From Spirochaetaceae bacterium (GTDB lineage: Bacteria > Spirochaetota > Spirochaetia > Treponematales > Breznakiellaceae): a stretch of 39,405 nucleotides of DNA. Positions 2,776 through 31,967 of the stretch are shown here, one piece after another (the stretch's first letter is position 1; every line of letters starts with the position of its first letter). Below the pieces are notes generated by a model. That model saw only the letters and a list, made by a program, of their open reading frames with translations. It did no database searches and was not told where the DNA came from. A program made the position numbers and the translations under genes. The stretch lies in assembly GCA_031257135.1 (NCBI GenBank), contig JAIRPH010000161.1, forward strand, positions 1 to 39,405, written 5' to 3'.

Positions 2776-3213
2776 TTATACGCTGAGGGTCAGCGCGCCT
2801 TCTTTTTTAAGCCTGAAGATATAATCGGCGTATTTTTTATCGGATACCGCGATATGCGCGAGAATCCAATCCCGCAGGAACCGGACGAACTGATTCGGGA
2901 CAAAGCTCTTGCCGCTTTCAAAGTTTTTGACTTCCTCCAAAACTTTTTTGACAAAAGCCTCATGCTCCTGCTTATGAGCGAGCAATTCAGGATAATTAAC
3001 CCGCTCAAGGATTTGCTCTTCTGCGGAGAAATGCTTTTTTACATACTCGACGGTCTGGCGGATGGTATCCTTAAAAATTGCTCCTGCGGCTTCATCACCT
3101 TCCCGGCACGCTTCATAGAGCGCGTTGGTCAGGTTCAGCAATTCCTTGTGCTGTTCGTCAACCATCAGAATACCTATCGCATACCGGTCTTCCCATGCAA
3201 TAAATGGTTCCAT
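2776..3213 (-). CDS. bacteriohemerythrin (hemerythrin-like metal-binding protein), paralog 1
   Basis: 145 aa. Di-iron ligand motifs present: DEQH, HFSAEE, HKQEH (HxxxH), HIAVSD. Confidence 0.9.
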   Translation of the reverse strand: MEPFIAWEDRYAIGILMVDEQHKELLNLTNALYEACREGDEAAGAIFKDTIRQTVEYVKKHFSAEEQILERVNYPELLAHKQEHEAFVKKVLEEVKNFESGKSFVPNQFVRFLRDWILAHIAVSDKKYADYIFRLKKEGALTLSV

Positions 3214-3287: not shown

Positions 3288-3725
3288 TTATACGGTTTTT
3301 TTCGTCCGCCGGATGTATTCCTCATATTTTTTATCTGACATGGCGATGTGGGTCAGGACCCAATCCCGCAGGAACCGGACGAACTGATTCGGGACAAAGG
3401 TCTTACCGCTCTGAAAATTTTTGACTTCCTCCAAAACTTTTTTGACAAAAGCCTCATGCTCCTTTTTATGAGGCGCCAATTCGGGAAAGCTGATTCGTTC
3501 CATAATCTGCTCTTCCGTGGAAAAATGAAACTTGACGTACTCTACGGCGCTGTGGATTACATCCTTAAAATGCGTCTTAGCCGCTTCGTCACCTTTGCGG
3601 CAGGCGTTATACAGCGTGTTGGTCAGGTTCAGCAGTTCCTTGTGCTGTTGGTCGATAATCTGAATACCAACCGAATAGCGTTCTTCCCATACAACGAAAG
3701 GTTCTTCAGCCATTTGTTCCTCCAA
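3288..3725 (-). CDS. bacteriohemerythrin, paralog 2
   Basis: 145 aa. DQQH, HFSTEE, HKKEH, HIAMSD. 99/104 nt identical to paralog 1 over 3359-3462 versus 2866-2969. Confidence 0.9.
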   Translation of the reverse strand: MEEQMAEEPFVVWEERYSVGIQIIDQQHKELLNLTNTLYNACRKGDEAAKTHFKDVIHSAVEYVKFHFSTEEQIMERISFPELAPHKKEHEAFVKKVLEEVKNFQSGKTFVPNQFVRFLRDWVLTHIAMSDKKYEEYIRRTKKTV

Positions 3726-3829: not shown

Positions 3830-3858
3830 TTGTCTAAAATCTCCGGTTGCAGTATAAT
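3830..3858 (+). promoter_or_regulatory. sigma-70-like promoter of hemerythrin 3 and probably of the downstream kinase/vWA/PP2C genes, GGCTTGTCT(-35)-17-TATAAT
   Basis: TTGTCT 3830-3835, TATAAT 3853-3858, AAGAGG 3879-3884, ATG 3892. Confidence 0.55.
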
Positions 3859-3891
3859 TAAATATCTTTAAGAACGTTAAGAGGTATTTTT

Positions 3892-4335
3892 ATGGCCGAG
3901 GAAGCCTTTATTGTATGGGACGAGCGGTATATTATCGGTATTCCCGTCGTCGATGAACAGCATAAGGCGCTGTTGGATTTAACCAATGAGCTGTATGAAG
4001 CGTGCCGGAAGGGCGACGAAGCCGCGCGGGAGCAGTTCAAAGATACTATCCGCCGGACCGTGGATTATGTGAAGTTTCATTTTTCTAACGAAGAAAAAAT
4101 TCTGGAGCGGGTTAAGTACCCCAAAGCCGGCGAGCAGAAACAACAGCATGAGTGCTTTGTCAGAAAGATTCTGGAAGAAGTACATAATTTTCAGACCGGT
4201 AAAACTTTTGTGCCGAATCAGTTCGTCCGGTTTCTGCGGGACTGGATTTTAGAGCATATCGCCGTATCTGACAGGGAGTACGCCGACTACATCCACCGGC
4301 TTAAAAAAGAAGGCGCCCTTAATCTGGGAGTGTAA
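3892..4335 (+). CDS. hemerythrin-like protein, paralog 3 (one canonical iron ligand replaced)
   Basis: 147 aa. DEQH, HFSNEE and HIAVSD are present. The HxxxH motif reads QKQQH (Gln82 where paralogs 1 and 2 have His). Confidence 0.88.
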   Translation: MAEEAFIVWDERYIIGIPVVDEQHKALLDLTNELYEACRKGDEAAREQFKDTIRRTVDYVKFHFSNEEKILERVKYPKAGEQKQQHECFVRKILEEVHNFQTGKTFVPNQFVRFLRDWILEHIAVSDREYADYIHRLKKEGALNLGV

Positions 4336-4344
4336 CCAAAAGAA

Positions 4345-5643
4345 ATGCGGGAGTTCGGCAAAGGCTATAAAATAGCGTTAGACCACGGAGGATACGCAGA
4401 GGTTATCCGAAAAATCGGAAGCGGCGGGCAGGGTATTGTTTATGAAGTTACCTTAAACGATAAACGGTATGCGCTCAAATGGTACACCTGTAGGTTTAAA
4501 AACCAAGAAGCCTTTCGGGAAAATCTGCGTTCCAATATTGAAATGGGCGCGCCAGACGATAAATTTTTGTGGCCCAAGTATCTAACCGCCGAGGAAGCGG
4601 GGAGTTTCGGTTATATTATGGATTTGCGCCCCCCGGAATTTTCTGATTTTTCGGATATTTTAAACAATACGGTGAAATTTCCTTCTACGGATATGCTGAT
4701 AAAGTCCGCCTTGAACATTGTGAACGGATTCCGAGAGCTTCACCGCAAAGGCCGGAGTTATCAAGACCTGAACGACGGCAATTTTTTCATCAACGCCGCC
4801 ACCGGGGATGCGCTTATCTGCGATAATGACAACGTCACCCCCGGAGACCAGAAAAACAGCGGCGACGTAGGGGGAAAGCCGGGGTATATGGCGCCTGAAG
4901 TGTTTCGGGGAGACGCTCACCCTAATTCCCTGACCGACTTTCATTCGCTGGCGGTGATTCTGTTTAAGCTGTTCCTCCGGCATGATCCCCTTTGGGGGGC
5001 GGCTCATGAGCGCGCGCCGTGCATCACGGAAGAGCTGGAAATGGAACTCTACGGTACGAATCCGGTATTCATCTTTGATCCCGAGGATGCTTCAAACCGT
5101 CCGGTCAACGGGGTTCATCCGAATCCGATCAACCTCTGGCCCCGGTATCCTGAGTTTTTTCAGAATGCCTTTATCGAATCCTTTGTCAAAGGCATGAAAG
5201 ACCCTAACGCGCGCCTTCCGGCGAATGAATGGCAGAAGATTCTCATCCGCCTCCGGGACGAAGCTATCTCGTGTCCCTTCTGCAAACGGGACTGGCCCAT
5301 TACCAAGCTGAGTCAGAACAGTCCCATAGCCTGTCCCTGCGGGCGGACCTTCAGCGCGCCTCTGCGCCTCCAAACCGGCAAGTACGGGGTTCCGCTGTTT
5401 CCGGGAAAGAAGCTCTACGGATGCCATACCATAGACGGAAGCGACGATTATCATACCGCTACCGGCGAAGTCATTATGAACAAGCATAATCCCGGACTGT
5501 GGGGAATCAAAAACCTCTCGAAAGAGGATTGGGAAATGACAAGCCCCGGGGGAGAACCCAAAAAAATAACTCCCGGATCGGTGGTCCCTATTGGAACCGG
5601 CGTATCTGTGGTTTTCAAGGAACTTACCGGTAAGATACTATAA
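4345..5643 (+). CDS. Ser/Thr protein kinase-like protein with a C-terminal zinc ribbon and a beta-rich (FHA-like?) tail; kinase component of a TerY-P-type triad
   Basis: 432 aa. Gly loop GSGGQG, Lys in YALKWY, catalytic loop YQDLNDGN (Asp141/Asn146), DND in place of DFG, GYMAPE, DFHSLAVIL. CPFC-x17-CPC at residues 310-332. Confidence 0.85.
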   Translation: MREFGKGYKIALDHGGYAEVIRKIGSGGQGIVYEVTLNDKRYALKWYTCRFKNQEAFRENLRSNIEMGAPDDKFLWPKYLTAEEAGSFGYIMDLRPPEFSDFSDILNNTVKFPSTDMLIKSALNIVNGFRELHRKGRSYQDLNDGNFFINAATGDALICDNDNVTPGDQKNSGDVGGKPGYMAPEVFRGDAHPNSLTDFHSLAVILFKLFLRHDPLWGAAHERAPCITEELEMELYGTNPVFIFDPEDASNRPVNGVHPNPINLWPRYPEFFQNAFIESFVKGMKDPNARLPANEWQKILIRLRDEAISCPFCKRDWPITKLSQNSPIACPCGRTFSAPLRLQTGKYGVPLFPGKKLYGCHTIDGSDDYHTATGEVIMNKHNPGLWGIKNLSKEDWEMTSPGGEPKKITPGSVVPIGTGVSVVFKELTGKIL

Positions 5644-5652
5644 GGAAAAAAT

Positions 5653-6384
5653 ATGAGTGATGAGATGTTCGGCGATGTCCAAGGCATCGTGCGCAGACAG
5701 ATGGTATTGTTTCTCTTGATTGATACCTCCGGCAGTATGGAAGGGGAGAAAATCGGCATTGTAAACAATACTATCCGAGAGGTACTGCCTGAGCTTCGGG
5801 ACATCGGCGGCGCGGACGTAGATTTGAAAATAGCCGCTTTAGCGTTCTCTACCGGCTGTAAGTGGCTTCATGCCGAGCCGGTTTCGGCGGACGCCTTTCA
5901 GTGGAACAACATGGAAGCTGACGGCGTAACCGATTTAGGAGCGGCTCTGCGGGAACTGAACTCGAAAATGTCGAAGGATACCTTCTTAAAAGCCCCTTCC
6001 GCGTCGGTGGCTCCGGCGATTTTTCTCTTATCTGACGGACAGCCTACGGACGATTACGACGGCGGACTTGAACTCCTGCGGAAGAACAACTGGTATAAGT
6101 ACGCTATTCGGGTAGCTCTCGCCATAGGGGGCGACGACGCCGACAAAGACGTACTGGCGAAATTTACCGGCAACAAGGAAGCGGTTATTACGGTGCATAC
6201 TCCTGAAGCCTTGCGGCGATGGATACGGTTTATTACCGTAACTTCCACTCAGATAGGGACTAAAAGTCAGCCCCTACAGGACGGTCAGATAGAAACCAAA
6301 CAGAATCAGATGACCGAAGCGATCCAACAGCAGACCGATCCGGATATGATTGATTCAGTATCTACCGACGAGGGTTCATGGTAG
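5653..6384 (+). CDS. von Willebrand factor A domain protein, TerY-like
   Basis: 243 aa. MIDAS DTSGSM, GVTDLGAAL, LLSDGQPTD. AAGGA sits 7 nt upstream of the ATG. Confidence 0.85.
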   Translation: MSDEMFGDVQGIVRRQMVLFLLIDTSGSMEGEKIGIVNNTIREVLPELRDIGGADVDLKIAALAFSTGCKWLHAEPVSADAFQWNNMEADGVTDLGAALRELNSKMSKDTFLKAPSASVAPAIFLLSDGQPTDDYDGGLELLRKNNWYKYAIRVALAIGGDDADKDVLAKFTGNKEAVITVHTPEALRRWIRFITVTSTQIGTKSQPLQDGQIETKQNQMTEAIQQQTDPDMIDSVSTDEGSW

Positions 6385-6388
6385 CGCA

Positions 6389-7321
6389 ATGTTTACAGGA
6401 TTCAAAGCGGTTGCCCCGGGTTTCAGTCATAACGAACAGAATTGTCAGGATGCGGCTGACGCGATCCTGCTGAACCGGCGCGACGGCGTCGGCATCGCCT
6501 TAGTAGCGGACGGTCACGGAAGCAGACGGCACTTCAGAAGCGCCCGGGGAGCGGAACTTGCGGTACAGGTCGCGAAGGAAGCTATTACTCGGTTCATCGA
6601 AATAACCGAGGAAAAAAACGCGGTCTTTTGGAACGAAACTATTCGGGCTAATCCGAAAAAAGCCGCTGAAACCCTCAGACAGCTTGAAAGCAATATTATC
6701 TATTGCTGGCGGGAAGCGGTACTGCGCCACAGTAAGACAAGCCCTTTTACCGGCGAAGAACATACGCTGTGTACTGAAAATAATATCAACCTCGAAGATG
6801 AAAACGATCTGGTTGCAATATACGGGTCTACTCTGCTGGGAGCGGTGATTGCTCAGGAATTTTGGTTCGCCATACAGATTGGAGACGGCGCGTGCGTGAT
6901 TATTACCGACCGCGGCAAAGTGGAGATAGGAATCCCTGAAGACAAACGCCTTGAATTCGGGCGGACTACCTCGTTATGCAATACCGACGCGTTGGAAAGT
7001 TTCCGGCACCGCTTCGGCGAGCGCATCGCCGGAATTACGGTTGCAAGCGACGGAGTTACGGATTCATTTCTTCCCAATAAGTACGCCGACTTCACTATGC
7101 AGTTGCTTAGAAACTTCGTCAGGTATCCTGACCTTGCGGAGCGGAATTTGCAGTCATTTTTACCGGAATTATCCCGGCGGGGCAGTAACGACGATGTTTC
7201 TCTGGCGGGTATTTTTGACCTCGCCCAGGGGAAACATATTCTTAACGAACTGCCCGCGGAAACGCCGAACAGCAATCCTGCCGAGTACGGCGAATATTGT
7301 ACCTCGGACGCTGGGAACTAA
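6389..7321 (+). CDS. PP2C-family Ser/Thr phosphatase (bacterial PP2C_2 type)
   Basis: N-terminal GFSHNEQNCQDA, ADGHGS, GSTLLG, IGDGA, ASDGVTD, NDDVSL. Start set to ATG 6389, 4 nt after the vWA stop; the ORF track starts at 6350. Confidence 0.85.
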   Translation: MFTGFKAVAPGFSHNEQNCQDAADAILLNRRDGVGIALVADGHGSRRHFRSARGAELAVQVAKEAITRFIEITEEKNAVFWNETIRANPKKAAETLRQLESNIIYCWREAVLRHSKTSPFTGEEHTLCTENNINLEDENDLVAIYGSTLLGAVIAQEFWFAIQIGDGACVIITDRGKVEIGIPEDKRLEFGRTTSLCNTDALESFRHRFGERIAGITVASDGVTDSFLPNKYADFTMQLLRNFVRYPDLAERNLQSFLPELSRRGSNDDVSLAGIFDLAQGKHILNELPAETPNSNPAEYGEYCTSDAGN

Positions 7322-7345
7322 AAAAAGGAGCGGTTTTCTTTACTT

Positions 7346-7699
7346 ATGGAAGCAAACGTTATTTTATGTAAATGCACAAAACAGCATACCTTCGGGATTC
7401 GAGTGGAAAAACGCAATGACGATTGGTTTAGAACCTGGGCGTTTAAAGTGGATGAAAAACGGATAAAACGGGAAGGTTTCGATAAAGCGGTAATTAGAGG
7501 AAGTATGTCGAACGATCCTGAATATCCGGGCTGTCCCTACTGCGGAGGGCATGGGTTTTTCCAATGCGACTGCGGAAAGATTAACTGTTTCAAAGAGAAC
7601 GAAGACAAAGAAAAATGGGAAGTTATCTGCAACTGGTGCGGCAAACGGCTTACCGTTGTGCGGGCGAGCAGTTTTGAAATGAAAGGCGGCGGTTTGTGA
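7346..7699 (+). CDS. small Cys-rich putative zinc-binding protein (possible stand-alone TerY-C-like metal-binding module)
   Basis: 117 aa with 9 Cys: CKC near the N-terminus, then CPYCGGHGFFQCDCGKINC and CNWCG. Co-directional, 24 nt after the PP2C gene, with AAGGAG upstream. Confidence 0.6.
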   Translation: MEANVILCKCTKQHTFGIRVEKRNDDWFRTWAFKVDEKRIKREGFDKAVIRGSMSNDPEYPGCPYCGGHGFFQCDCGKINCFKENEDKEKWEVICNWCGKRLTVVRASSFEMKGGGL

Positions 7700-7718: not shown

Positions 7719-8612
7719 TCAGCAATTCAGCGTATACCCTTCCTGTTCCAAGTCGGCTAAAAAGGTAAGCCGTTCCCGGGGATATTTCGGATCAAGCTGT
7801 ACCGCCTGAGCGTAGTCCTGAAGAGCAGGATCATACTGTTTCAGCAAGTAATAGGCGTCTCCCCGCATCGCAAAGACTTCGATATAGTCGCCTTTGAGCC
7901 TGATCGCTTCAGTATAATCCGCGATAGCGTCGGTATAGCGTTCCTGTTCGGCTCGGACGTTGCCTCGTTCGTAAAAGGCTTCCGGGTAATCCGGTCTCAG
8001 CCGGATTACTTCGCTGTAATCCGCGTAGGCTTTATCGTCTTCTTCGCCTACATAGTAGGCTCTGCCTCGCATCATGAAGGCTTCCGCGTAATCCGGCTTG
8101 ATGCGGATCGCTTCGGTGTAGTCCGCGATAGCCCGGAGAGGATTATCTTTGAAGTATAAAGAATAGGCGAAGCCCCGCATAAAAAAGGCTTCCGCGTAAT
8201 CCGGCTTGATGCGGATCGCTTCGGTATAGTCCGCGATAGCCCGATCATATTCGTCTTGTAAATAATACGACATACCCCGCCGGACAAAGGCTTCCACGTG
8301 ATCAGGTTTTATCTTGATGACCTCGGTATAATCCGCGATAGCCCGATACCCTTCGTCGTTTAAGTAGTAGAGCGTGCCTCGGTTATACAAAGCCTCGATG
8401 TAATCGGGTTTGATGCGGATCGCTTCGGTATAATCCGCGATAGCCGAAGGCTGATTATCGCTAAACGTATACGCTATTGCCCGCATAAAAAAGGCTTCCA
8501 CGTAATCCGGCTTGAGCTGAACAGCTTCGGTATACTCCGAGACTGCCGCGTCATAGGCTCTTTCTTCAAAATAGGCGTCGCCCTGCTTTTTATAAGTTTC
8601 GGCGTCAGTCAC
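7719..8612 (-). CDS. TPR-repeat protein built from near-identical 34-36-aa units (AIADYTEAIRIKPDYxEAF...)
   Basis: 297 aa. GTG start at 8612 preceded by AGGAGG with 6-nt spacing. At least 7 consecutive TPR-like units. Confidence 0.9.
   Translation of the reverse strand: MTDAETYKKQGDAYFEERAYDAAVSEYTEAVQLKPDYVEAFFMRAIAYTFSDNQPSAIADYTEAIRIKPDYIEALYNRGTLYYLNDEGYRAIADYTEVIKIKPDHVEAFVRRGMSYYLQDEYDRAIADYTEAIRIKPDYAEAFFMRGFAYSLYFKDNPLRAIADYTEAIRIKPDYAEAFMMRGRAYYVGEEDDKAYADYSEVIRLRPDYPEAFYERGNVRAEQERYTDAIADYTEAIRLKGDYIEVFAMRGDAYYLLKQYDPALQDYAQAVQLDPKYPRERLTFLADLEQEGYTLNC
8077..8243 (-). repeat. intragenic direct repeat, period 108 bp (57/58 nt identical: 8077-8134 versus 8185-8242)
   Basis: aaggcttccgcgtaatccggcttgatgcggatcgcttcggt[g/a]tagtccgcgatagcccg occurs twice. 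More diverged copies lie along 7880-8530. Confidence 0.85.
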
Positions 8613-10961: not shown

Positions 10962-11034
<73 letters not shown>

Positions 11035-22353: not shown

Positions 22354-24399
22354 ATGACAAATAGAGTGCGAGCAATCGGCATCATGGCGATGTTCATCGC
22401 GGCGGCGGGCGCGGTTTTCCCGCAGACTGACGCTGATTATGTTGCCGCCGGCGTTCAGTACGCCGAGAAAGGCGACTATAATCGGGCGATTGAGGAATAT
22501 ACCAAAGCTCTGCAAATCAATCCGGGCAACGCCGATGCGTTAGTCGGGCGGGGCTGGGCGTATCGCCAGCGGAATCGGTATGACGCGGCGGTCCGGGACT
22601 TCAGCGCGGCGGTTCGGCTTGATCCGCAGGATGTTTCAGCGTATATCGGGCGCGGGGAGGTCCATTGGACAGAGGGCAGATATGATGCCGCGCTGAAAGA
22701 TTTCAGCGAGGTAATCCGGCTTGATCCGAAGAATGTTTTAGCCTATGTCGCCCGAGGAAAGACGTTTCATCTGCAAGGTCAGTACGAGGCGGCGGTTAAG
22801 GACTTTACTGATGCCCTTCAGATCGATCCGAACAACGTCTGGGCTTACACTTCTCTTGGAGAAACCTATCGGCAAATCGAGTGGTACGACGCGGCGGTTC
22901 AAAATTTCAACGCCGCGCTTCAGCTTGAACCTGCCTATGTTTCAGCGTATGTCGCCCGGGGAAAGACGCGGAGACAGCAAGGTCAGTATGACGAGGCGGC
23001 TCGAGACCTTAATGAGGCGGTGCGGCTCGCGTCTGATTATACCGCGGCCTATATCGAGCTTGGATCGGTATACTTTGACAAGCTCGAATATGATCGGGGG
23101 ATTAAATATATTACCGAAGCGCTTCGGCTTGATCCGTATAATGCCTCGGCGTATATCAAGCGGGGAGAAATATACCGGGAGCAGGGCAGATATGACGCGG
23201 CGATCCGGGACTTTGATGCGGCTCTTCAGTTCAGCTCTGAAAACGCTTGGGCTTATATGGAGCGGGGAACGGCTTATGCGGAAAAGGAACAGTATAACGC
23301 GGCGATCCGGGATTACAATGAAGCGATTCGCATCGTTCCCGATTACGGCGTATTATATCGGCATCGGGGAACAGCCTATCGGCTGATGGGCAGGTACGAT
23401 GAGGCGATTTGGGATTTAAACACGGCGATTCATTTTGATCCGAATGATGTGTGGGCTTATACCAATCGGGGAAGAGCCTACGGAGAGAAGGGCGACTACA
23501 TAAACGCCCTCATGGATTTTCACGAGGCTTTGCGGCTTGATCCCGATTTTATTGACGCCTTATTCGCCCGAGGGTATGTATACAGTCTTGCAGGCAATCG
23601 GGATCAGGCTATTGCGGATTGGACTGAGCTAATCCGCCGGGACCCTAATCTTGCTGTAATGTTCAGCAATCGGGGCTATGACTATTACCTGAAAGGAGAC
23701 TACGATCAGGCTATTGCGGACTGCAATGAAGCGATTCGGCTTGACCCTGATTTCGCGGAAGCCTATCTAAACCGCGCGCTCGCGTACGCGCTCAAAAAAG
23801 AATACCCTCAGGCGATCCGGGACTGTCAGAAGACCTTGCAAATCGATCCGAATCACGCCGAGGCGCGCCGGAATCTGGAGCGGCTTCTGCGCGGAGAAGA
23901 CCCGTTCCCGTTTCCCGGCAGGATAGATTCCTCTGACACCGCCGCAGTAGGCGTTTTTTTACGTCAAGGGCTTCAGTACGCCAAGAACGGCGATGTTGAT
24001 CGGGCGATTCAGTCTTTCAGCGAAGCCGTGCGGATAAATCCCTATGATTCCTATGCCTTTTATTACCGCGGGCTTGCGTATATGCAAAAAGGAGATGCCG
24101 CCGGAGCCATTGAGGATTATACCGCCGCGCTGAGGATCAATCCGTCCTTTGTTTCAGCCTTGAACAATCGGGGCGCGGCGTATTACTACCGGGGCGATTT
24201 TGATCGGTCCCTTGAGGATTACACCGCCGCGTTGAAAATCGACCCGAATAACAGCAGAGCCTTTAATAACCGGGGCGCGGCGTATTTCAAAAAAGGCGAC
24301 CTAAACCGGGCGGAGAAGGACTTTATCGAAGCTCTGCGGATCGATCCGTTCTATTCGGTTGCGGAAGACAATCTTGAGTTTCTGCGCTGGGGGCGATAG
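22354..24399 (+). CDS. large TPR-repeat protein (about 18 TPR units) with an N-terminal signal/anchor
   Basis: 681 aa. Repeated AIxDFxxALxLDPxxxxAYxxRG units. Confidence 0.9.
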   Translation: MTNRVRAIGIMAMFIAAAGAVFPQTDADYVAAGVQYAEKGDYNRAIEEYTKALQINPGNADALVGRGWAYRQRNRYDAAVRDFSAAVRLDPQDVSAYIGRGEVHWTEGRYDAALKDFSEVIRLDPKNVLAYVARGKTFHLQGQYEAAVKDFTDALQIDPNNVWAYTSLGETYRQIEWYDAAVQNFNAALQLEPAYVSAYVARGKTRRQQGQYDEAARDLNEAVRLASDYTAAYIELGSVYFDKLEYDRGIKYITEALRLDPYNASAYIKRGEIYREQGRYDAAIRDFDAALQFSSENAWAYMERGTAYAEKEQYNAAIRDYNEAIRIVPDYGVLYRHRGTAYRLMGRYDEAIWDLNTAIHFDPNDVWAYTNRGRAYGEKGDYINALMDFHEALRLDPDFIDALFARGYVYSLAGNRDQAIADWTELIRRDPNLAVMFSNRGYDYYLKGDYDQAIADCNEAIRLDPDFAEAYLNRALAYALKKEYPQAIRDCQKTLQIDPNHAEARRNLERLLRGEDPFPFPGRIDSSDTAAVGVFLRQGLQYAKNGDVDRAIQSFSEAVRINPYDSYAFYYRGLAYMQKGDAAGAIEDYTAALRINPSFVSALNNRGAAYYYRGDFDRSLEDYTAALKIDPNNSRAFNNRGAAYFKKGDLNRAEKDFIEALRIDPFYSVAEDNLEFLRWGR

Positions 24400-26637: not shown

Positions 26638-28353
26638 TTATTCCATATATATTTGAGCGTATTGTCTGAGCCGGGGATTGTTCGGGTCAAAGGAAAAAGC
26701 CTGTTTGTAATAATACGCCGCCCGGCGGTCTTCCCCTCGGCGGCGATAGACTTCCACCATCCCCAGAAGGGCGTCAAAATTCCGAGGGTCTTCAAAAAGG
26801 CACGTCCGCAGGTCTTGCAAGACGCCTTCTTCGTCCCGCTGAAGCCGGCTCCGCAGATAATAATACTGAGCTTTCAGGACGCCTCCGTTCAGCGAAGCTA
26901 ACCGGCTCTCGATAAGGGTTCCAGCCTCCCCGGATTGACCGAGATCAATAAGCGCGGAAATATAAGCGACCGTAGCCTCGTCGTTGGAAGGCTCTCGTTC
27001 ATGGAGTTCCTTAGCGTATCCAAGCGCGCCGGTCTTATTCCCAAGTCCCCGCTCGACCGTATATGCCCGCAGGAGACTCTGAGACGGAAGCCCTTCGTTC
27101 AGCAATCGGGGCAGATACGACTTAGCCTCAGCCCACGCTTCCCGGCGAACCGCGTCCTGAAAGGCGATCTCGATAACTGAAAGGGGCGGCGCAGGGGCTT
27201 GGATCAGTCGCCGGAGCAATTCCCGCCCTTCCTGCTGATCCTCGGCTTGGCTGGATTCCAGCAAAAGTCCGGCGGCGTACACCGCGATTTCATCATCTAT
27301 CCGGGGACGGTTGAGCATAGACCGCAAGTAGTTCAGCGCGGCTCCGAAGTTATGGTAGCCCTCAGCCTGAATCCGGGCGCGGAGAAAAAGATACAGCGTA
27401 TTGGCGGTGTCAGACACCGCATACTGATCCAAAAACGTAACGGCTCTGAGAAACTGCTTCCGCTCAACCAGCGTATGAGCCATCATGAGTATAAACTCGC
27501 TGTCCCGGCTGTTCCGCTGAAGCGATTCCTGAATCGCCGGTTCCGCCTGAGACCATGCTTTATTGCGGTAATACGCAAGGGCAAGCTCCCGTTTGACGGT
27601 CATATTATCGGGAAACTGGACAACCAAATCTTGGAGAATCCATAAGGCTTCCTGTTTTTGTCCGGCTTCGTTCATAAGCCGAACCAACCCTAAAGCCGCG
27701 GGATAACATTCTGAAGATACCGTATATGCCCGCCGATACGCGGAAATAGCTTCCGAAAACCGGTTCATCCGTTCATAGACCAGCCCCATAAAATACAACG
27801 CCAAAACAGACCGAGGATTCAGCTCCTGCGCCCGCTCAAGAAAAGGCAGGGTATTTAAAAGCTTCTGCTGGTCGGCGCTCTCCAATAACGCCAAAAAAGG
27901 AAGAGTATATTCCAAATAATCTTGCGAATTCGCCTGCGGCTCCAGATATATTCCCGCCGCGATTCCTCTCAGAATCCTTGTATAGGGAGAAGTTTGAGGC
28001 AGATCGGACAGTGAAACCGAAAGCCGTAAGCCCGGATTAGGGTATAGTTTCTGGATCAGTGTAGAGATAACCGCGTTCATAACCCGTCCGAAATCATTTG
28101 ATCCAAGCCCTCGGTCGCGGATCAGGGATAAGCCGTTTTGCAGGGACGAAGGGATTCCCAATTCCGCGGCTGACCGGATTTCATCGACAATACCGCCCTC
28201 AGAAGGACGAACCGATACCGGCTCCGCGCTCGGACGCCATTCCGCCGCAGGAAGAGGCGTTTCTTGAATCGCCGCGCCTGTCCCGCAGGAAGCCTCCCAC
28301 AGCGCAAGAACAGCAATTATATAAAAAAAACCGATTTTTTTTGAATAGTTCAT
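26638..28353 (-). CDS. TPR-repeat lipoprotein
   Basis: 571 aa. Signal plus Cys (IIAVLALWEASCG). Multiple TPR-like helical pairs. Confidence 0.8.
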   Translation of the reverse strand: MNYSKKIGFFYIIAVLALWEASCGTGAAIQETPLPAAEWRPSAEPVSVRPSEGGIVDEIRSAAELGIPSSLQNGLSLIRDRGLGSNDFGRVMNAVISTLIQKLYPNPGLRLSVSLSDLPQTSPYTRILRGIAAGIYLEPQANSQDYLEYTLPFLALLESADQQKLLNTLPFLERAQELNPRSVLALYFMGLVYERMNRFSEAISAYRRAYTVSSECYPAALGLVRLMNEAGQKQEALWILQDLVVQFPDNMTVKRELALAYYRNKAWSQAEPAIQESLQRNSRDSEFILMMAHTLVERKQFLRAVTFLDQYAVSDTANTLYLFLRARIQAEGYHNFGAALNYLRSMLNRPRIDDEIAVYAAGLLLESSQAEDQQEGRELLRRLIQAPAPPLSVIEIAFQDAVRREAWAEAKSYLPRLLNEGLPSQSLLRAYTVERGLGNKTGALGYAKELHEREPSNDEATVAYISALIDLGQSGEAGTLIESRLASLNGGVLKAQYYYLRSRLQRDEEGVLQDLRTCLFEDPRNFDALLGMVEVYRRRGEDRRAAYYYKQAFSFDPNNPRLRQYAQIYME

Positions 28354-29131: not shown

Positions 29132-29163
29132 TTCTATGTGTTTAATATAAATAGGAGATGTGT

Positions 29164-30636
29164 ATGACTGACATCAATCTACGCGCTCAGGCGGCTCCGG
29201 TGCGGGAACGGCGGCTTGGCTCAATCACCGGCTATGCGGGTACCGCCGGAGATCTGGTGGGGTGCGCCAGACGAGGGACCTTAAAGGAAAAGAACCGATC
29301 CTTCAGCCAGTGCCTGGGTTGCTCCACCTCCAATGCGGCTTGTACGGTGATCCTAATCCAGGATGCGGCAGTAGTGAGCCACGGTCCGGTGGGGTGCGCG
29401 GGGTGCCTCCACGAATTCGCCTTTACCTACCGAGTCAACGGCGTTCACCGGAACCTGAAGGAACCGACCCCCCGGCGGATATTCAGCAGTAACATGGGGG
29501 AAGCCGACACGGTGTACGGCGGCAAGAAGAAACTGACGGAAGCCGTCCGGGAAGCCGCCCGGCGGGCAACGCCAAAGGTCATTTTTATCATCACCACCTG
29601 CGCGTCAGGGATCATCGGGGAAGATGTGGAACGCGTTGCCGAAGAAGCCGAGGAAGAGCTGGGCATCCCCGTGGCGGCGATCTTCTGCGAAGGCTTCCGT
29701 TCTCGGATATGGACATCCGGCTTTGACGCGGGCTATCACGGCATCGCCCGGAAGCTCATCAAAAAGCCGGAGAAAAAGCAGGAAGACCTTATCAATATCA
29801 TAAACTTCTGGGGAGCCGACCTCTTTGGGCAGTGGTTCAGCCGTCTGGGACTTCGGGCGAACTACCTGACCCCCTACGCCACGGTCGCCCAGATCGCCTC
29901 GTCTTCGGAAGCCGCGGCGACTATCCAGATTTGCGCCACTCTGGGTTCCTACATGGGGGCGGCGTTGGAACAGGGCTTCGGCGTGCCGGAGATCAAGGTG
30001 AGTCCTCCCTACGGCATCCCCCAGACCGAGCGTTGGTTCCGGGAACTGGGACGCGTTACTCATCGGGAGGAGGCGGTGGAGGACTTTCTGCGGGAGGAGC
30101 GGGAAATATGGACGCCCGAAATCGAAGCCCTGCGGGAGAAGCTCCGGGGTAAGACCGCCTACGTTACCGCCGGGGCGTCCCACGGGCATTCCCTGCTGGC
30201 TGTCCTCCGTGAGTTGGGTATGGAAGTCCAGGGGGCGGCGATCTTCCATCACGATCCCCTCTACGATAACGGGGCGGTGAGCGCGGACACCCTGCAAAAC
30301 GTGGTCAGCGATTACGGAGACGTTTCCCGCTACAATGTCTGCAACAAGCAGGAATTCGAGCTGGTGAATATCCTGAACCGGACGCGTCCCAACATTCTCC
30401 TTGCCCGGCACGGGGGCATGACCCTCTGGGGCGCGAAATTCGGCATACCCTCCCTCCTTATCGGGGATGAGCATTTCGGCATGGGCTATCAGGGACTGGT
30501 TCAATACGGTAAGCGCATCCTTGATACCCTGGAAAACGACGAGTTTGTGAAGAATCTGGAAAAGCACGCCATCAACCCCTACACCGCATGGTGGCTTGAA
30601 CAGGACCCCTACACCTTTTTAGGAGACGGGCAATGA
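29164..30636 (+). CDS. nitrogenase component-1-type oxidoreductase, alpha (NifD/NifE-like) subunit; nitrogenase-like (Nfl/Mar-type) enzyme
   Basis: By-eye alignment to NifD: LGC (Cys62 equivalent), SHGPVGCAGC (Cys88 equivalent), ITTCASGIIGEDV (Cys154 equivalent), IFCEGFRS. Start set to ATG 29164, 6 nt after AGGAG; the track starts at 29158. Confidence 0.88.
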   Translation: MTDINLRAQAAPVRERRLGSITGYAGTAGDLVGCARRGTLKEKNRSFSQCLGCSTSNAACTVILIQDAAVVSHGPVGCAGCLHEFAFTYRVNGVHRNLKEPTPRRIFSSNMGEADTVYGGKKKLTEAVREAARRATPKVIFIITTCASGIIGEDVERVAEEAEEELGIPVAAIFCEGFRSRIWTSGFDAGYHGIARKLIKKPEKKQEDLINIINFWGADLFGQWFSRLGLRANYLTPYATVAQIASSSEAAATIQICATLGSYMGAALEQGFGVPEIKVSPPYGIPQTERWFRELGRVTHREEAVEDFLREEREIWTPEIEALREKLRGKTAYVTAGASHGHSLLAVLRELGMEVQGAAIFHHDPLYDNGAVSADTLQNVVSDYGDVSRYNVCNKQEFELVNILNRTRPNILLARHGGMTLWGAKFGIPSLLIGDEHFGMGYQGLVQYGKRILDTLENDEFVKNLEKHAINPYTAWWLEQDPYTFLGDGQ

Positions 30637-31967
30637 CCGGTCCTCTTGAGCAACAGCGTTATATGTGCGCCATCGGAGCTATGCAGACCGTGGTGGCTAT
30701 TCCCCGGGCAATCCCGATCCTCCATTCTGGACCCGGTTGCGGCGCCATGGTGGCGGGCTTCTTCGAGCGTTCCCGAGGCTATTCCGGGGGTTATACCGCG
30801 CCGTGTACCAACTTCTCCGAAACCGAGGTGATCTTTGGGGGAATTAAAAAGCTGGAGACCCTGATCCGTCATTCCTACCGCGTTCTCGACAGCGATTTGC
30901 AGGTGATCCTACCGGGCTGTACCTCCGCGATTGTGGGGGACGACATCGGCGAAGCGGCCCGACGCTTTGCCGCGGATGGAAAGCCTATCGTCTTTGCCAA
31001 TGCGCCGGGCTTCAAGTTCTCGAACTATGAGGCTCACAGCGTGATTGTGAACGCCATTATCGATCAGTACACGGATAGGTTCGCGGAACGCGGAGCGCCA
31101 ACGGACGCGAAACTGGTGAACCTCTTTGCCTCGGTGCCTTATCAGGATCAGTTTTGGAAGGGGAATCTGGAAGAACTCAAATATCTCATCGAGGGTATCG
31201 GACTCAAGGCGAACATCTTCTTTGGTCCCCGTTCCACCGGGGTAGGAGAATGGCGCGCTATTCCCCGGGCGAATTTCAACATTCTGGTATCGCCCTGGTT
31301 CGGCTTGGAGATCGTGGAACACCTGCGGGAAAAATACGGACAGGATTACTATCAGTTCCCGCATCTGCCCATCGGGGGCAATGGGAGCGCGGAATTCCTG
31401 CGGGGACTCTATGCCTTTGCCAACGAAAAGCAGGCGGGACTTGATGTGACGGCGGCGGAGCGGTTCATTACGGCGGAGGAACAGGCGTTCTACGAGGAGA
31501 TCGACAATCTTGCTACCTTCCTACTGGAATTCCGCTACGGACTCCCGTCTTTTGTTCATATCCTCCACGACGCCAGCTACGTTCTGGGCATGGCGAAATT
31601 CCTACTCCACGAAACAGGGATCGCTCCTAAAGAGCAGTTCATCACCGATAACACCCCGGCGGCGTATCAGCAGGAGATCCGCCGTCTTGCCGCACGAATC
31701 TCGGACAAAAAGGAGATACCCGTCTATTTCGAGAGCGATGCAGGGCTTGCCCAGGAACGGATCGCCGCCCTGAACCGCGAGGGACGAGGACTTATCATCG
31801 GGTCAGGCTGGGACAAAGCGCTTGCGGAACGCAAGGGCTGGGACTTCCTTTCGGCGGCGTTGCCTTCACCCTACCGGCTTGCCATGACCGCCGGATACGC
31901 CGGATACCGGGGAGGCTTACGGCTCATCGAAGATATTTATAACACGGCATTGATGACGTACCGGTGA
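30633..31967 (+). CDS. nitrogenase component-1-type oxidoreductase, beta (NifK/NifN-like) subunit
   Basis: 444 aa. MCAIGA, HSGPGCGA and LPGCTSAIVGDDI match the three NifK P-cluster Cys contexts. The start overlaps the alpha stop (ATGA). Confidence 0.88.
   Translation: MTGPLEQQRYMCAIGAMQTVVAIPRAIPILHSGPGCGAMVAGFFERSRGYSGGYTAPCTNFSETEVIFGGIKKLETLIRHSYRVLDSDLQVILPGCTSAIVGDDIGEAARRFAADGKPIVFANAPGFKFSNYEAHSVIVNAIIDQYTDRFAERGAPTDAKLVNLFASVPYQDQFWKGNLEELKYLIEGIGLKANIFFGPRSTGVGEWRAIPRANFNILVSPWFGLEIVEHLREKYGQDYYQFPHLPIGGNGSAEFLRGLYAFANEKQAGLDVTAAERFITAEEQAFYEEIDNLATFLLEFRYGLPSFVHILHDASYVLGMAKFLLHETGIAPKEQFITDNTPAAYQQEIRRLAARISDKKEIPVYFESDAGLAQERIAALNREGRGLIIGSGWDKALAERKGWDFLSAALPSPYRLAMTAGYAGYRGGLRLIEDIYNTALMTYR

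What the first reader, a model, noticed from the sequence alone, without database searches (positions are those of the whole stretch)
3830..7699. Hemerythrin-led five-gene TerY-P-type phosphorylation module (hemerythrin, Ser/Thr kinase, vWA, PP2C, Cys-rich Zn protein)
Seen: five co-directional ORFs with gaps of 9, 9, 4 and 24 nt. I find only one promoter-like element (3830-3858), upstream of the hemerythrin. The kinase has a Gly loop, the Lys of ALK, a catalytic Asp/Asn and APE. The vWA protein has a complete MIDAS (DTSGSM...T...D). The phosphatase has the CQDA/ADGHG/GDG/SDG motifs. Established: vWA(TerY) + PP2C + STK is the TerY-phosphorylation (TerY-P) triad defined by comparative genomics (Anantharaman, Iyer and Aravind, 2012). 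As I recall, it was among the systems giving phage protection in the Gao et al. 2020 screen. Its mechanism and trigger are still unknown. Inference: this locus is a non-canonical version in four ways. (a) A hemerythrin-like O2/NO/iron-sensing protein appears to be co-transcribed as the first gene. (b) The Cys-rich metal-binding module is a separate fourth ORF rather than a C-terminal fusion. (c) The kinase carries its own Zn ribbon plus a beta-rich tail. (d) The kinase catalytic loop is divergent (YQDLNDGN for HRDLKPxN; DND for DFG). A redox- or gas-gated vWA/kinase/phosphatase conflict or stress module has not, to my knowledge, been described.
Basis: partly seen in the sequence, partly recalled or inferred. 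Interest (0 to 1): 0.8.

Follow-up and report, generated by a model that had tools for sequence, protein, structure and literature searches.

The report
Kinase–vWA–phosphatase cassette beside hemerythrin genes
This is a widespread, already-recognised type of bacterial kinase/vWA/phosphatase switch cassette (TerY-P type) that, only in a few termite-gut-type spirochaetes, has ended up directly behind a separate tandem array of oxygen-binding hemerythrin genes; it is a modest local variant, not a new kind of system.

Summary
The five ORFs, their 9/9/4/24-nt gaps and all quoted motifs are real, and profile HMMs place them in Hemerythrin, Pkinase, VWA, PP2C_2 and TerY_C. The conserved unit is kinase→vWA→PP2C: this order holds in about 97-99% of 165 related loci from more than 590 species. 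A small TerY_C protein is a frequent fourth gene.

Three of the four claimed "non-canonical" traits are family-wide or already known. The YQDLNDGN/CDNDN motifs are invariant in the family. Stand-alone TerY-C genes are known. A C-terminal Zn ribbon on the kinase is the published TerY-P architecture. The kinase's beta-rich tail models as an FHA-like fold.

Hemerythrin is the only lineage-specific element. It precedes the kinase in five loci, all among the closest relatives, with 8-48-nt junctions. Sister loci at 84-85% identity lack it, as do all more distant loci. The same hemerythrin array also exists on its own.

One oddity remains. In three genomes the kinase-proximal copy has Gln in place of an iron-ligand His, yet is under purifying selection.

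Verdict: new variant of a known kind. A redox-gated mechanism is possible but unsupported.

The parts
2776..3213 (-). Hemerythrin paralogue, orthologous to the middle gene of the tandem array in L001 and L167. Inverted here.
   Evidence: Pfam Hemerythrin 9e-17. 84% tblastx identity to L001 7054-7476. Tree.
3288..3725 (-). Hemerythrin paralogue, orthologous to the first gene of the array in L001 and L167. Inverted here.
   Evidence: Pfam Hemerythrin 3.1e-17. 82% to L001 6548-6952. Tree.
3830..3858 (+). Sigma-70-like promoter match TTGTCT-17-TATAAT upstream of the third hemerythrin. It is the last intergenic promoter-like site before the kinase cassette.
   Evidence: 10/12 match. Comparable promoter-like sites precede the second and third hemerythrin genes in L001 (sequence printed). 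This is a consensus match only; no transcript data.
3892..4335 (+). Kinase-proximal bacteriohemerythrin, 147 aa. Gln82 replaces the first His of the HxxxH iron-ligand motif.
   Evidence: NCBIfam bacteriohemerythrin 3.1e-34, above cut-off. Q82 aligns with His of the HKEIH motif in DcrH-Hr 2avk. The same Gln occurs in L001 and L167. dN/dS is 0.05-0.09.
4345..5262 (+). Ser/Thr protein-kinase domain (aa 1-306) with family-invariant SYQDLNDGN and CDNDNV motifs.
   Evidence: Pfam Pkinase 3.8e-16. Alignment to GRK2. Invariant columns. Structure model.
5263..5364 (+). Cys-rich Zn-ribbon-like linker of the kinase (aa about 307-340; CPFC...C-P-C).
   Evidence: C310, C313 and C332 are invariant in 23 sequences. 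No Pfam model reaches significance.
5365..5643 (+). FHA-like beta-sandwich tail of the kinase (aa about 341-432, plus the stop codon).
   Evidence: Tail model pLDDT 88.4. The top 50 Foldseek PDB hits are all FHA domains; the best is APLF FHA at E 1.3e-3, TM 0.68. There is no sequence-level FHA match.
5653..6384 (+). TerY-like vWA protein with a complete MIDAS, a conserved VTS[ST]QIGS[KR]S motif, and an acidic tail ending in Trp.
   Evidence: Pfam VWA 2.3e-7. 31% identity to E. coli YegL, E 2e-8. Alignment of 20 relatives.
6389..7321 (+). PP2C-type Ser/Thr phosphatase.
   Evidence: Pfam PP2C_2 9.7e-30. Present after vWA in 138 of 140 loci with enough sequence.
7346..7699 (+). Small TerY_C-type protein: an N-terminal 'TWAF' module followed by a Cys-rich metal-binding part (six invariant Cys in it: C63, C66, C74, C76, C95, C98 by my reading of A4).
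   Evidence: Pfam TerY_C 4e-6 for the window copy, and 18 of 18 relatives hit. Present in all 6 of the first set of closest loci and in L167 (L171 ends within the kinase gene, so it cannot be scored).
7719..8612 (-). Convergent TPR-repeat gene, 19 nt from the TerY_C stop. A neighbour; membership of the module is doubtful.
   Evidence: Pfam TPR. TPR genes lie directly upstream of the kinase in 13 spirochaete loci. The window also has other TPR genes at 22354-24399 and 26638-28353.

Best explanation
The window carries an ordinary member of a very large, horizontally spread family of TerY-P-type phospho-switch cassettes. The cassette is kinase (kinase domain + Zn ribbon + FHA-like tail) → TerY-like vWA → PP2C → small TerY_C zinc protein.

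Shown by sequence and comparison:
- The four genes form the conserved unit.
- The kinase keeps its catalytic residues.
- The vWA keeps its MIDAS site.
- The PP2C keeps its metal-binding motifs.

Inferred mechanism, from biochemistry on distant relatives (E. coli YegI/PphC; Deinococcus vWA-STPK-FHA-PP2C):
1. The kinase autophosphorylates and phosphorylates partner Ser/Thr sites. A candidate site is the conserved VTS[ST]QIGS[KR]S segment of the vWA protein.
2. Its own FHA-like tail docks on phospho-Thr to stabilise an 'on' complex.
3. The vWA MIDAS and the TerY_C zinc protein supply metal-dependent ligand or partner recognition.
4. PP2C resets the switch.
5. The output is unknown. Anti-phage or stress defence is plausible by analogy.

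The hemerythrin is not a core part of this cassette. A pre-existing autonomous tandem array of 3-4 bacteriohemerythrin genes became joined, in one small clade of termite-gut-type Spirochaetaceae, to the 5' side of the cassette. The cassette is now most likely transcribed by read-through from the last hemerythrin's promoter. In the window, the first two array genes were later inverted.
For: Family placement.

Cassette conservation over 165 loci: vWA follows the kinase in 144 of 148 and PP2C in 138 of 140. TerY_C is present in 29 of 125, including 6 of 6 closest and 18 of 30 spirochaete loci. Nine viral-labelled contigs show the same order.

Block boundaries: similarity to the six closest loci is confined to the block, and the flanks differ.

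Family-wide traits: the motifs and the tail are conserved throughout. The tail has an FHA-like fold.

Literature:
- The TerY-P definition includes a Zn-ribbon kinase (PMC11090510).
- YegI is an active kinase and PphC dephosphorylates it (10.1101/819920 and 10.1101/303594).
- A vWA-STPK-FHA-PP2C operon uses FHA as a docking switch (10.64898/2026.01.23.701218).

Hemerythrin:
- It occurs only in the window, L001, L163, L167 and L171.
- It is absent from L161/L162, L164 and L165, which are 76-83% identical over the concatenated kinase+vWA+PP2C proteins.
- Stand-alone 4-gene arrays exist in L168-L170.
- The kinase-proximal copies group with the last gene of the stand-alone arrays.
- Window and L001 share the 9-nt junction CCAAAAGAA.
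Against: - There are no transcript data, so co-transcription rests on 8-48-nt gaps and the absence of a terminator-like hairpin.
- The composite hemerythrin + cassette persists in five genomes with different flanks.
- In three of those genomes the proximal hemerythrin carries a conserved His→Gln change at an iron ligand, under purifying selection. Pure neutral juxtaposition does not predict this.
- The canonical FHA phospho-Thr-binding signature (GR / SxxH / NG) is not evident in the tail (my reading of alignment A2), and no sequence search detects FHA.
- No effector gene is identified.
- The window's neighbourhood is housekeeping, not a defence island.
Confidence: 0.7

Rival explanations
1. 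The kinase-proximal hemerythrin is a recruited O2/NO/iron sensor. It gates the vWA/kinase/PP2C switch, making a redox-controlled conflict or stress module.
For: - Tight junctions of 8, 9, 12, 17 and 48 nt in five loci, with no terminator.
- The composite is retained although the flanks differ.
- The proximal copy in the window, L001 and L167 sits on a long branch. It carries Gln at an iron-ligand position, conserved with dN/dS of 0.05-0.09.
- The closest solved relative is DcrH-Hr, the hemerythrin domain of a chemoreceptor. It is known as an O2 sensor (established knowledge).
Against: - The cassette lacks hemerythrin in sister loci that are 76-83% identical to the window over the concatenated kinase+vWA+PP2C proteins, and in every one of about 170 more distant loci.
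- The same array exists alone, next to unrelated genes.
- L163 and L171 keep the His, so the Gln change is not tied to linkage itself.
- No domain fusion between hemerythrin and any cassette component was seen.
- No paper in the held library links them.
Confidence: 0.15
2. Adjacency without any coupling. The hemerythrin is transcribed alone, and the cassette is driven by an unrecognised internal promoter inside the 3' end of the hemerythrin gene.
For: - Relatives without hemerythrin have their own upstream regions: 360-420 nt in L161 and L164, 51 nt in L165.
- The promoter scan recognises only a sigma-70-type consensus.
Against: - There is only a 9-nt spacer and no terminator-like hairpin.
- No + strand promoter-like match lies between 3858 and 4538.
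- The junction sequence is conserved between the window and L001.
Confidence: 0.08
3. A reading about role, not exclusive of the best explanation. The cassette is not an immune system. It is a housekeeping signalling module that controls lineage-specific repeat-scaffold proteins (LRR, TPR, RCC1, WD40).
For: Same-strand repeat proteins flank the cassette:
- 78 loci have a Zn-ribbon + BspA-LRR protein upstream.
- 13 have a TPR protein upstream.
- 12 have an RCC1 protein downstream.
- At least one (L084) has WD40.

In addition:
- The window has a convergent TPR gene 19 nt away.
- The window's neighbourhood is housekeeping.
- No PADLOC defence model matches vWA, PP2C or TerY_C.
Against: - The distribution across phyla is patchy at 45-60% identity, and flanks vary even between close relatives. 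This is typical of accessory or defence cargo.
- TerY-P-like modules are reported as stand-alone anti-phage systems (PMC11090510 citing Gao 2020).
- The PADLOC negative is uninformative, because E. coli YegL and PphC also give no hit.
- The closest relatives of the window have no conserved repeat-protein neighbour.
Confidence: 0.25

Closest known systems
TerY-P (TerY-phosphorylation) triad of Anantharaman, Iyer and Aravind 2012, as summarised in PMC11090510 and PMC4978471
   Same: It has a TerY-like vWA protein, a PP2C phosphatase and a Ser/Thr kinase with a C-terminal Zn ribbon. These are adjacent, co-directional genes that behave as a mobile cassette. A TerY_C metal-binding protein accompanies it.
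   Different: - Gene order here is kinase-vWA-PP2C-TerY_C.
- The kinase tail continues into an FHA-like domain.
- There are no Ter genes, McrBC/CoCoNuT genes, or other DNA/RNA-processing partners nearby.
- In this clade alone the cassette sits behind a hemerythrin array.
TerY-P-like stand-alone anti-phage system of Gao et al. 2020 (as described in PMC11090510)
   Same: It has the same three enzyme and domain classes, as a stand-alone cassette.
   Different: - The validated version is described as having an OB-fold at the kinase C-terminus. Here the tail models as Zn ribbon + FHA-like.
- Sequence relatedness could not be tested.
- No phage phenotype is known for this family.
E. coli yegL-pphC(yegK)-yegI
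   Same: - It is a vWA + PP2C + eukaryote-like kinase operon.
- Homology to the window proteins is distant: vWA 31% (E 2e-8), kinase 23% over residues 1-310 (E 1e-6), PP2C E 0.004.
- YegI is also an 'atypical' kinase lacking consensus residues, yet it is active. PphC dephosphorylates it.
   Different: - The gene order differs (vWA-PP2C-kinase).
- YegI has a long two-pass membrane C-terminal half instead of Zn ribbon + FHA-like.
- It has no TerY_C gene and no hemerythrin.
Deinococcus radiodurans DRA0331-DRA0334 (vWA, STPK, FHA protein, KI-FHA-PP2C) operon (bioRxiv 10.64898/2026.01.23.701218)
   Same: It is a vWA + kinase + PP2C operon in which FHA modules act as phospho-docking switches.
   Different: There, FHA is a separate protein and is also fused to the phosphatase. 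Here an FHA-like fold is fused to the kinase. No sequence comparison was made.
Bacteriohemerythrins, including the DcrH-Hr sensor domain (PDB 2avk) and McHr (4xpx)
   Same: The window's three 145-147-aa proteins match the bacteriohemerythrin models above cut-off. The two minus-strand copies keep the full H-HxxxE-HxxxH-HxxxxD ligand set.
   Different: The kinase-proximal copy has Gln82 at the first His of HxxxH. It is a single-domain protein and is not fused to any signalling domain.

Membership tests
TerY-P triad | TerY-like vWA protein with an intact MIDAS | tested here: met
   Pfam VWA 2.3e-7, above cut-off. D24-x-S26-x-S28, T93 and D128 are read from the sequence. The DxSxS motif is kept in 17 of 20 aligned relatives (variants DTSRSM, DKSYSM); T93 and D128 are conserved.
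TerY-P triad | PP2C-like phosphatase encoded next to the vWA gene | tested here: met
   PP2C_2 9.7e-30. The gap after vWA is 4 nt. PP2C is present in 138 of 140 related loci.
TerY-P triad | Ser/Thr kinase with catalytic residues | tested here: met
   Pkinase 3.8e-16. K45, D141, N146 and D160 align with the GRK2 catalytic residues.
TerY-P triad | Zn ribbon fused to the kinase C-terminus (PMC11090510) | tested here: inconclusive
   A CxxC...CxC pattern is present, with C310, C313 and C332 invariant. The third Cys (C330) is variable. No Zn-ribbon HMM is significant. Metal binding was not tested.
TerY-P triad | Association with Ter genes or with restriction / DNA-processing systems | tested here: not met
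   The window's neighbours are a two-component system, a peptidase, a transporter, oxidoreductases, an MCP and others. This is a contextual feature, not an obligatory one.
Gao 2020 TerY-P-like anti-phage system | OB-fold at the kinase C-terminus | tested here: not met
   The tail model's top 50 PDB matches are all FHA domains.
Gao 2020 TerY-P-like anti-phage system | Sequence homology to the validated proteins, or a match to a defence-system model | not testable with these tools
   PADLOC gives no hit for vWA, PP2C or TerY_C. It also gives none for E. coli YegL and PphC, so the library seems to hold no applicable model. The validated sequences are not on hand.
Gao 2020 TerY-P-like anti-phage system | Protection against phage | not testable with these tools
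   This requires an experiment.
TerY_C (PF15616) | Match to the family HMM and a conserved Cys set | tested here: met
   The window copy scores 27.4 bits against a cut-off of 28.4. All 18 aligned relatives match, the best at 1.9e-13. Eight Cys are invariant over the whole protein (C10, C63, C66, C74, C76, C81, C95, C98).
Bacteriohemerythrin | HMM match above the curated cut-off | tested here: met
   NF033749 117.9 bits (cut-off 84) and TIGR02481 117.2 bits (cut-off 51.75).
Bacteriohemerythrin | Complete H-HxxxE-HxxxH-HxxxxD di-iron ligand set | tested here: not met
   Copy 3892-4335 has Q82 where DcrH-Hr and the paralogues have His. The two minus-strand copies keep all seven ligands.
FHA domain (kinase tail) | FHA beta-sandwich fold | tested here: met
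   The model has pLDDT 88.4. Foldseek's best hit is APLF FHA, E 1.3e-3, probability 1.0, TM 0.68 by target. The top 50 hits are all FHA. This rests on a predicted structure only.
FHA domain (kinase tail) | Sequence signature for phospho-Thr binding (GR, SxxH, NG) or an HMM match | tested here: not met
   There is no Pfam or PDB-profile hit to FHA. Only G, K/R and N positions are conserved, and there is no SxxH.
E. coli YegI/PphC/YegL operon family | Close homology and the same kinase architecture (two-pass membrane C-terminal half) | tested here: not met
   Homology is only distant. The alignment to YegI ends at residue 310, and the window's tail models as a soluble beta-sandwich domain.

The most novel reading that the evidence does not exclude
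In a small clade of termite-gut-type spirochaetes, the last gene of a hemerythrin array has been captured by a TerY-P cassette. In the window, L001 and L167 it has been remodelled: a His→Gln change at an iron ligand, kept under purifying selection. On this reading it is a dedicated O2/iron/NO-responsive input protein, so the kinase/vWA/PP2C switch fires or is licensed according to redox state. That would make it the first TerY-P-type module with an identifiable sensory trigger.
Probability: 0.15. Interest if true: 0.65.

Novelty: new variant of a known kind. Interest (0 to 1): 0.35.

Why it matters
TerY-P-type cassettes are very common. This kinase family alone has more than 4,000 database relatives and occurs in more than 590 species. 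No trigger or output is known for any of them.

Most of what looked unusual here is the normal anatomy of one large, uncharacterised branch. That branch has two features useful for annotation and for designing experiments:
- a kinase with Zn ribbon + FHA-like tail;
- a frequent stand-alone TerY_C partner.

The hemerythrin linkage is narrow. It does, however, offer a cheap natural experiment. Near-identical cassettes exist with and without the hemerythrin, and one hemerythrin variant has an altered iron site. If the two are functionally coupled, this would be a rare handle on what such a switch senses. If not, it is an example of operon accretion by juxtaposition.

Tried and rejected
- **PADLOC.** There were no hits for vWA, PP2C or TerY_C. 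The kinase gave only generic hits (mad6, PD-T4-6). I rejected this as evidence against a defence role, because E. coli YegL and PphC also give nothing.
- **NCBIfam.** No specific family was found for the four cassette proteins.
- **Sequence-level FHA or OB detection in the tail.** Nothing was found. The FHA assignment rests on the predicted fold only.
- **Primary papers.** Anantharaman 2012 and Gao 2020 are not held. Their content is taken second-hand from PMC11090510.
- **TerY_C in Ruminococcus-type loci.** A family HMM search found no separate or fused copy.
- **Kinase/vWA/PP2C tree.** It could not resolve whether the hemerythrin-linked loci are monophyletic (44.5%) or whether L161/L164 nest inside them (52.5%). 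One gain, with or without one loss, fits either way.
- **Promoter homology.** The upstream regions of the kinase in hemerythrin-less loci show no similarity to the region upstream of hem3 in the window.
- **Rfam, tRNA and repeat scans.** No regulatory RNA or mobile-element ends were found around the locus. The repeats are the hemerythrin paralogues and the TPR units.
- **TPR gene as a module component.** I considered this and down-weighted it, because the window holds other TPR genes and the closest relatives lack one.

Full report
**1. Observation**

The five + strand ORFs exist exactly as described: 3892-4335, 4345-5643, 5653-6384, 6389-7321 and 7346-7699, with gaps of 9, 9, 4 and 24 nt.

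Profile HMMs place them in the following families:
- Hemerythrin, 1.2e-15. NCBIfam bacteriohemerythrin scores 117.9 bits against a cut-off of 84.
- Pkinase, 3.8e-16.
- VWA, 2.3e-7.
- PP2C_2, 9.7e-30.
- TerY_C, 4e-6. The window's copy is 1 bit under the gathering score.

For TerY_C, all 18 aligned relatives hit the same model, the best at 1.9e-13. They share eight invariant Cys (seven in the C-terminal metal-binding part).

The promoter-like site TTGTCT-17-TATAAT at 3830-3858 is the best + strand match. Weaker matches lie inside genes at 4538 and 7215. Such matches are only about two-fold enriched over shuffles.

The other two lie on the minus strand at 2776-3213 and 3288-3725.

**2. The conserved unit**

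The kinase has 4,119 database relatives at E ≤ 1e-5. The best are Treponema and Spirochaetaceae sequences, at up to 88% identity.

Its signature peptides SYQDLNDG and L[IV]CDNDNV retrieved more than 590 species' genomes, from Spirochaetota, Ruminococcus/Oscillospiraceae, Bacteroidales and others. Nearly all match over residues 1-431. A further 494 metagenome stretches were found.

I analysed 165 fetched loci by six-frame ORF search with phmmer:
- vWA follows the kinase in 144 of 148 loci with enough sequence.
- PP2C follows in 138 of 140.
- The order is always kinase→vWA→PP2C.
- Nine relatives on viral-labelled contigs have the same order.

A small TerY_C protein is present in 29 of 125 loci:
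- In all 6 of the closest relatives, it lies downstream, as in the window.
- In 18 of 30 spirochaete loci at 55-66% identity, it lies mostly directly upstream of the kinase.
- It occurs in only 6 of 89 of the distant loci.

Its N-terminal half also occurs fused to a vWA domain (L079).

tblastx of the six closest loci against the window shows similarity confined to the block. The flanks differ in every case. The cassette therefore behaves as a self-contained accessory unit.

**3. The claimed departures from the canonical system**

(d) *Divergent catalytic loop.* YQDLNDGN and CDNDN are invariant across a 23-sequence alignment spanning 57-88% identity. Aligned to GRK2, they correspond to YRDLKPAN and the DFG-equivalent segment. 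K45, D141, N146 and D160 are retained. This is a family signature, not local decay. E. coli YegI is a distant homologue that also lacks consensus residues, and it is an active kinase (10.1101/819920).

(c) *Zn ribbon and beta-rich tail.* The tail is conserved family-wide. The published description of TerY-P already includes a kinase 'fused at the C-terminus to a zinc ribbon' (PMC11090510).

A model of the tail alone has pLDDT 88.4. Its top 50 Foldseek PDB matches are all FHA domains. The best is APLF FHA, with E 1.3e-3, probability 1.0 and TM 0.68 by target length.

The beta-rich tail is therefore an FHA-like fold. It is not the OB-fold that PMC11090510 attributes to the Gao 2020 version. Sequence searches do not detect FHA, and the canonical GR/SxxH signature is not evident. 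Phospho-Thr binding is inferred only.

(b) *Separate TerY_C ORF.* A stand-alone 'terY-C' gene is part of classical ter clusters (PMC12054061). A separate TerY_C ORF is therefore not new.

**4. The hemerythrin**

No hemerythrin ORF occurs within ±7-8 kb of the kinase in any of the 160 genome or metagenome loci except L001.

Context look-ups for the closest kinases and for hemerythrin homologues gave three groups.

*Hemerythrin-linked loci:*
- the window;
- L001 (hem-hem-hem-cassette);
- L163 (hem-cassette);
- L167 (hem-hem-hem-cassette, 8-nt junction);
- L171 (hem×4-kinase, then the contig ends).

*Hemerythrin-less cassettes*, 76-83% identical to the window over the concatenated kinase+vWA+PP2C proteins:
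- L161/L162 and L164, with TetR upstream and a 360-420-nt spacer;
- L165.

*Stand-alone arrays:* tandem arrays of four hemerythrins with no cassette, lying between a CPSase gene and a convergent DXP-synthase gene (L168-L170).

In a tree of 22 hemerythrins, the kinase-proximal copies group with the last gene of the stand-alone arrays. The other window copies pair with the first and second genes of the L001 and L167 arrays.

The simplest history has three steps:
1. An autonomous hemerythrin array existed first.
2. The cassette became attached behind its last gene, once, in a narrow clade. The cassette tree cannot say whether L161/L164 lost it secondarily.
3. In the window, the first two array genes were inverted. 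This is consistent with the 436-nt inverted repeat formed by the paralogues.

Window and L001 share the junction sequence CCAAAAGAA. With gaps of 8-48 nt, no terminator-like hairpin, and a promoter-like site before each hemerythrin gene, read-through co-transcription of the cassette from the last hemerythrin's promoter is the likely state. No transcript data exist.

**5. One unexplained detail**

In the window, L001 and L167, the kinase-proximal hemerythrin has Gln in place of the first His of the HxxxH motif ('GEQKQQHECF' versus 'AHKQEHEAF'). This position aligns with a His of the HKEIH motif in the solved DcrH hemerythrin domain. By established knowledge of hemerythrins, that His is an iron ligand.

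The three copies form a long-stemmed clade. Within it, pairwise dN/dS is 0.05-0.09 with saturated dS, like the other paralogues. The variant is therefore maintained by selection.

L163 and L171 keep the His, so the change is not a necessary consequence of linkage. This is the only observation that hints at specialisation of the hemerythrin for the cassette.

**6. Mechanism**

*Shown by sequence:* an intact kinase, a MIDAS-bearing vWA, a PP2C with its metal-binding motifs, and a Cys-rich TerY_C protein.

*Established on distant relatives:*
- E. coli YegI autophosphorylates, and PphC dephosphorylates it.
- In a Deinococcus vWA-STPK-FHA-PP2C operon, FHA modules act as phospho-docking switches.
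- TerY-P triads are predicted to be metal-sensing phosphorylation switches, and TerY-P-like modules are reported as stand-alone anti-phage systems.

*Inferred for this locus:*
1. The kinase phosphorylates itself and/or a partner. A candidate is the conserved VTS[ST]QIGS[KR]S segment behind the vWA fold.
2. Its FHA-like tail reads the phospho-mark.
3. PP2C resets the switch.
4. vWA and TerY_C provide ligand or partner recognition.

The output is unknown. The window's neighbourhood is housekeeping: a two-component system, an M24 peptidase, an EamA transporter, oxidoreductases, an MCP and nitrogenase-like genes. No defence model matches, but that negative is uninformative.

**7. Comparison and verdict**

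By composition this is a TerY-P-type cassette. It differs from the CoCoNuT-associated and Ter-associated versions in context. It differs from the Gao 2020 version in the kinase tail. It is only distantly related to E. coli yegL-pphC-yegI.

The hemerythrin linkage has not been described in the held literature. It is confined to five loci of one small clade and joins two units that also exist separately.

I rate it a new variant of a known kind, with interest 0.35. The redox-gated reading keeps about 15% probability.

**8. Seen in passing**

In other lineages the same cassette is flanked on the same strand by repeat-scaffold proteins:
- Zn-ribbon + BspA-LRR in 78 loci;
- TPR in 13 loci;
- RCC1 in 12 loci;
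- WD40.

This is a far more frequent association than hemerythrin. These proteins may point to the cassette's real partners or substrates.

Noticed in passing
L011 6897-7943; L091 6263-6976 and 9912-11078; L084 8909-10192; window 7719-8612: The kinase-vWA-PP2C cassette is recurrently flanked on the same strand by lineage-specific repeat-scaffold proteins. These are Zn-ribbon + BspA-type LRR (78 loci), TPR (13), RCC1 (12) and WD40. By eye, several seem to share an N-terminal helical segment. The window has a convergent TPR gene 19 nt after TerY_C, but it also has other TPR genes elsewhere.
   Followed up: partly
window 3892-4335 (residue 82); L001 7551-7988; L167 4993-5436: The kinase-proximal hemerythrin has Gln instead of the first His of the HxxxH iron-ligand motif in three genomes. 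The change is conserved, with dN/dS of 0.05-0.09. The other paralogues and the stand-alone arrays keep the His.
   Followed up: partly
L168 6427-8444; L170 4302-6333: Tandem arrays of four bacteriohemerythrin genes with conserved internal order occur as autonomous units in related termite-gut-type spirochaete contigs. They lie between a CPSase small-chain gene and a convergent DXP synthase gene.
   Followed up: partly
L079 5930-6718; L103 4023-4934: The N-terminal half of the small TerY_C-type protein (TWAF...YPGCPYC) occurs fused to a vWA domain (L079) and to an unrelated 300-aa domain (L103). These fusions link it to the vWA component.
   Followed up: no
window 5653-6384 (aa about 195-243) and 19 relatives: vWA proteins of this family share a Ser/Thr-rich motif VTS[ST]QIGS[KR]S just after the vWA fold, and an acidic C-terminal tail with a conserved Trp at or within three residues of the C-terminus (Tyr in one of 20 sequences). 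The motif is a possible phospho-acceptor and the tail a possible docking element.
   Followed up: no
window 29158-31967: Two adjacent nitrogenase-component-1-type (Oxidored_nitro) genes are followed by an ABC-transporter ATPase. They are unrelated to the finding.
   Followed up: no
L020 11231-12463 (44 loci); L011 11254-12276 (18 loci): In Ruminococcus-type loci the cassette is followed by one of two genes. One is a conserved 411-aa protein with no Pfam hit, a Q/G/P/Y-rich low-complexity centre and a basic tail. The other is a membrane GGDEF protein.
   Followed up: no
window 10962-11034: A tRNA-Thr(CGT) gene lies on the minus strand. It is the only Rfam or ARAGORN hit in the window.
   Followed up: yes
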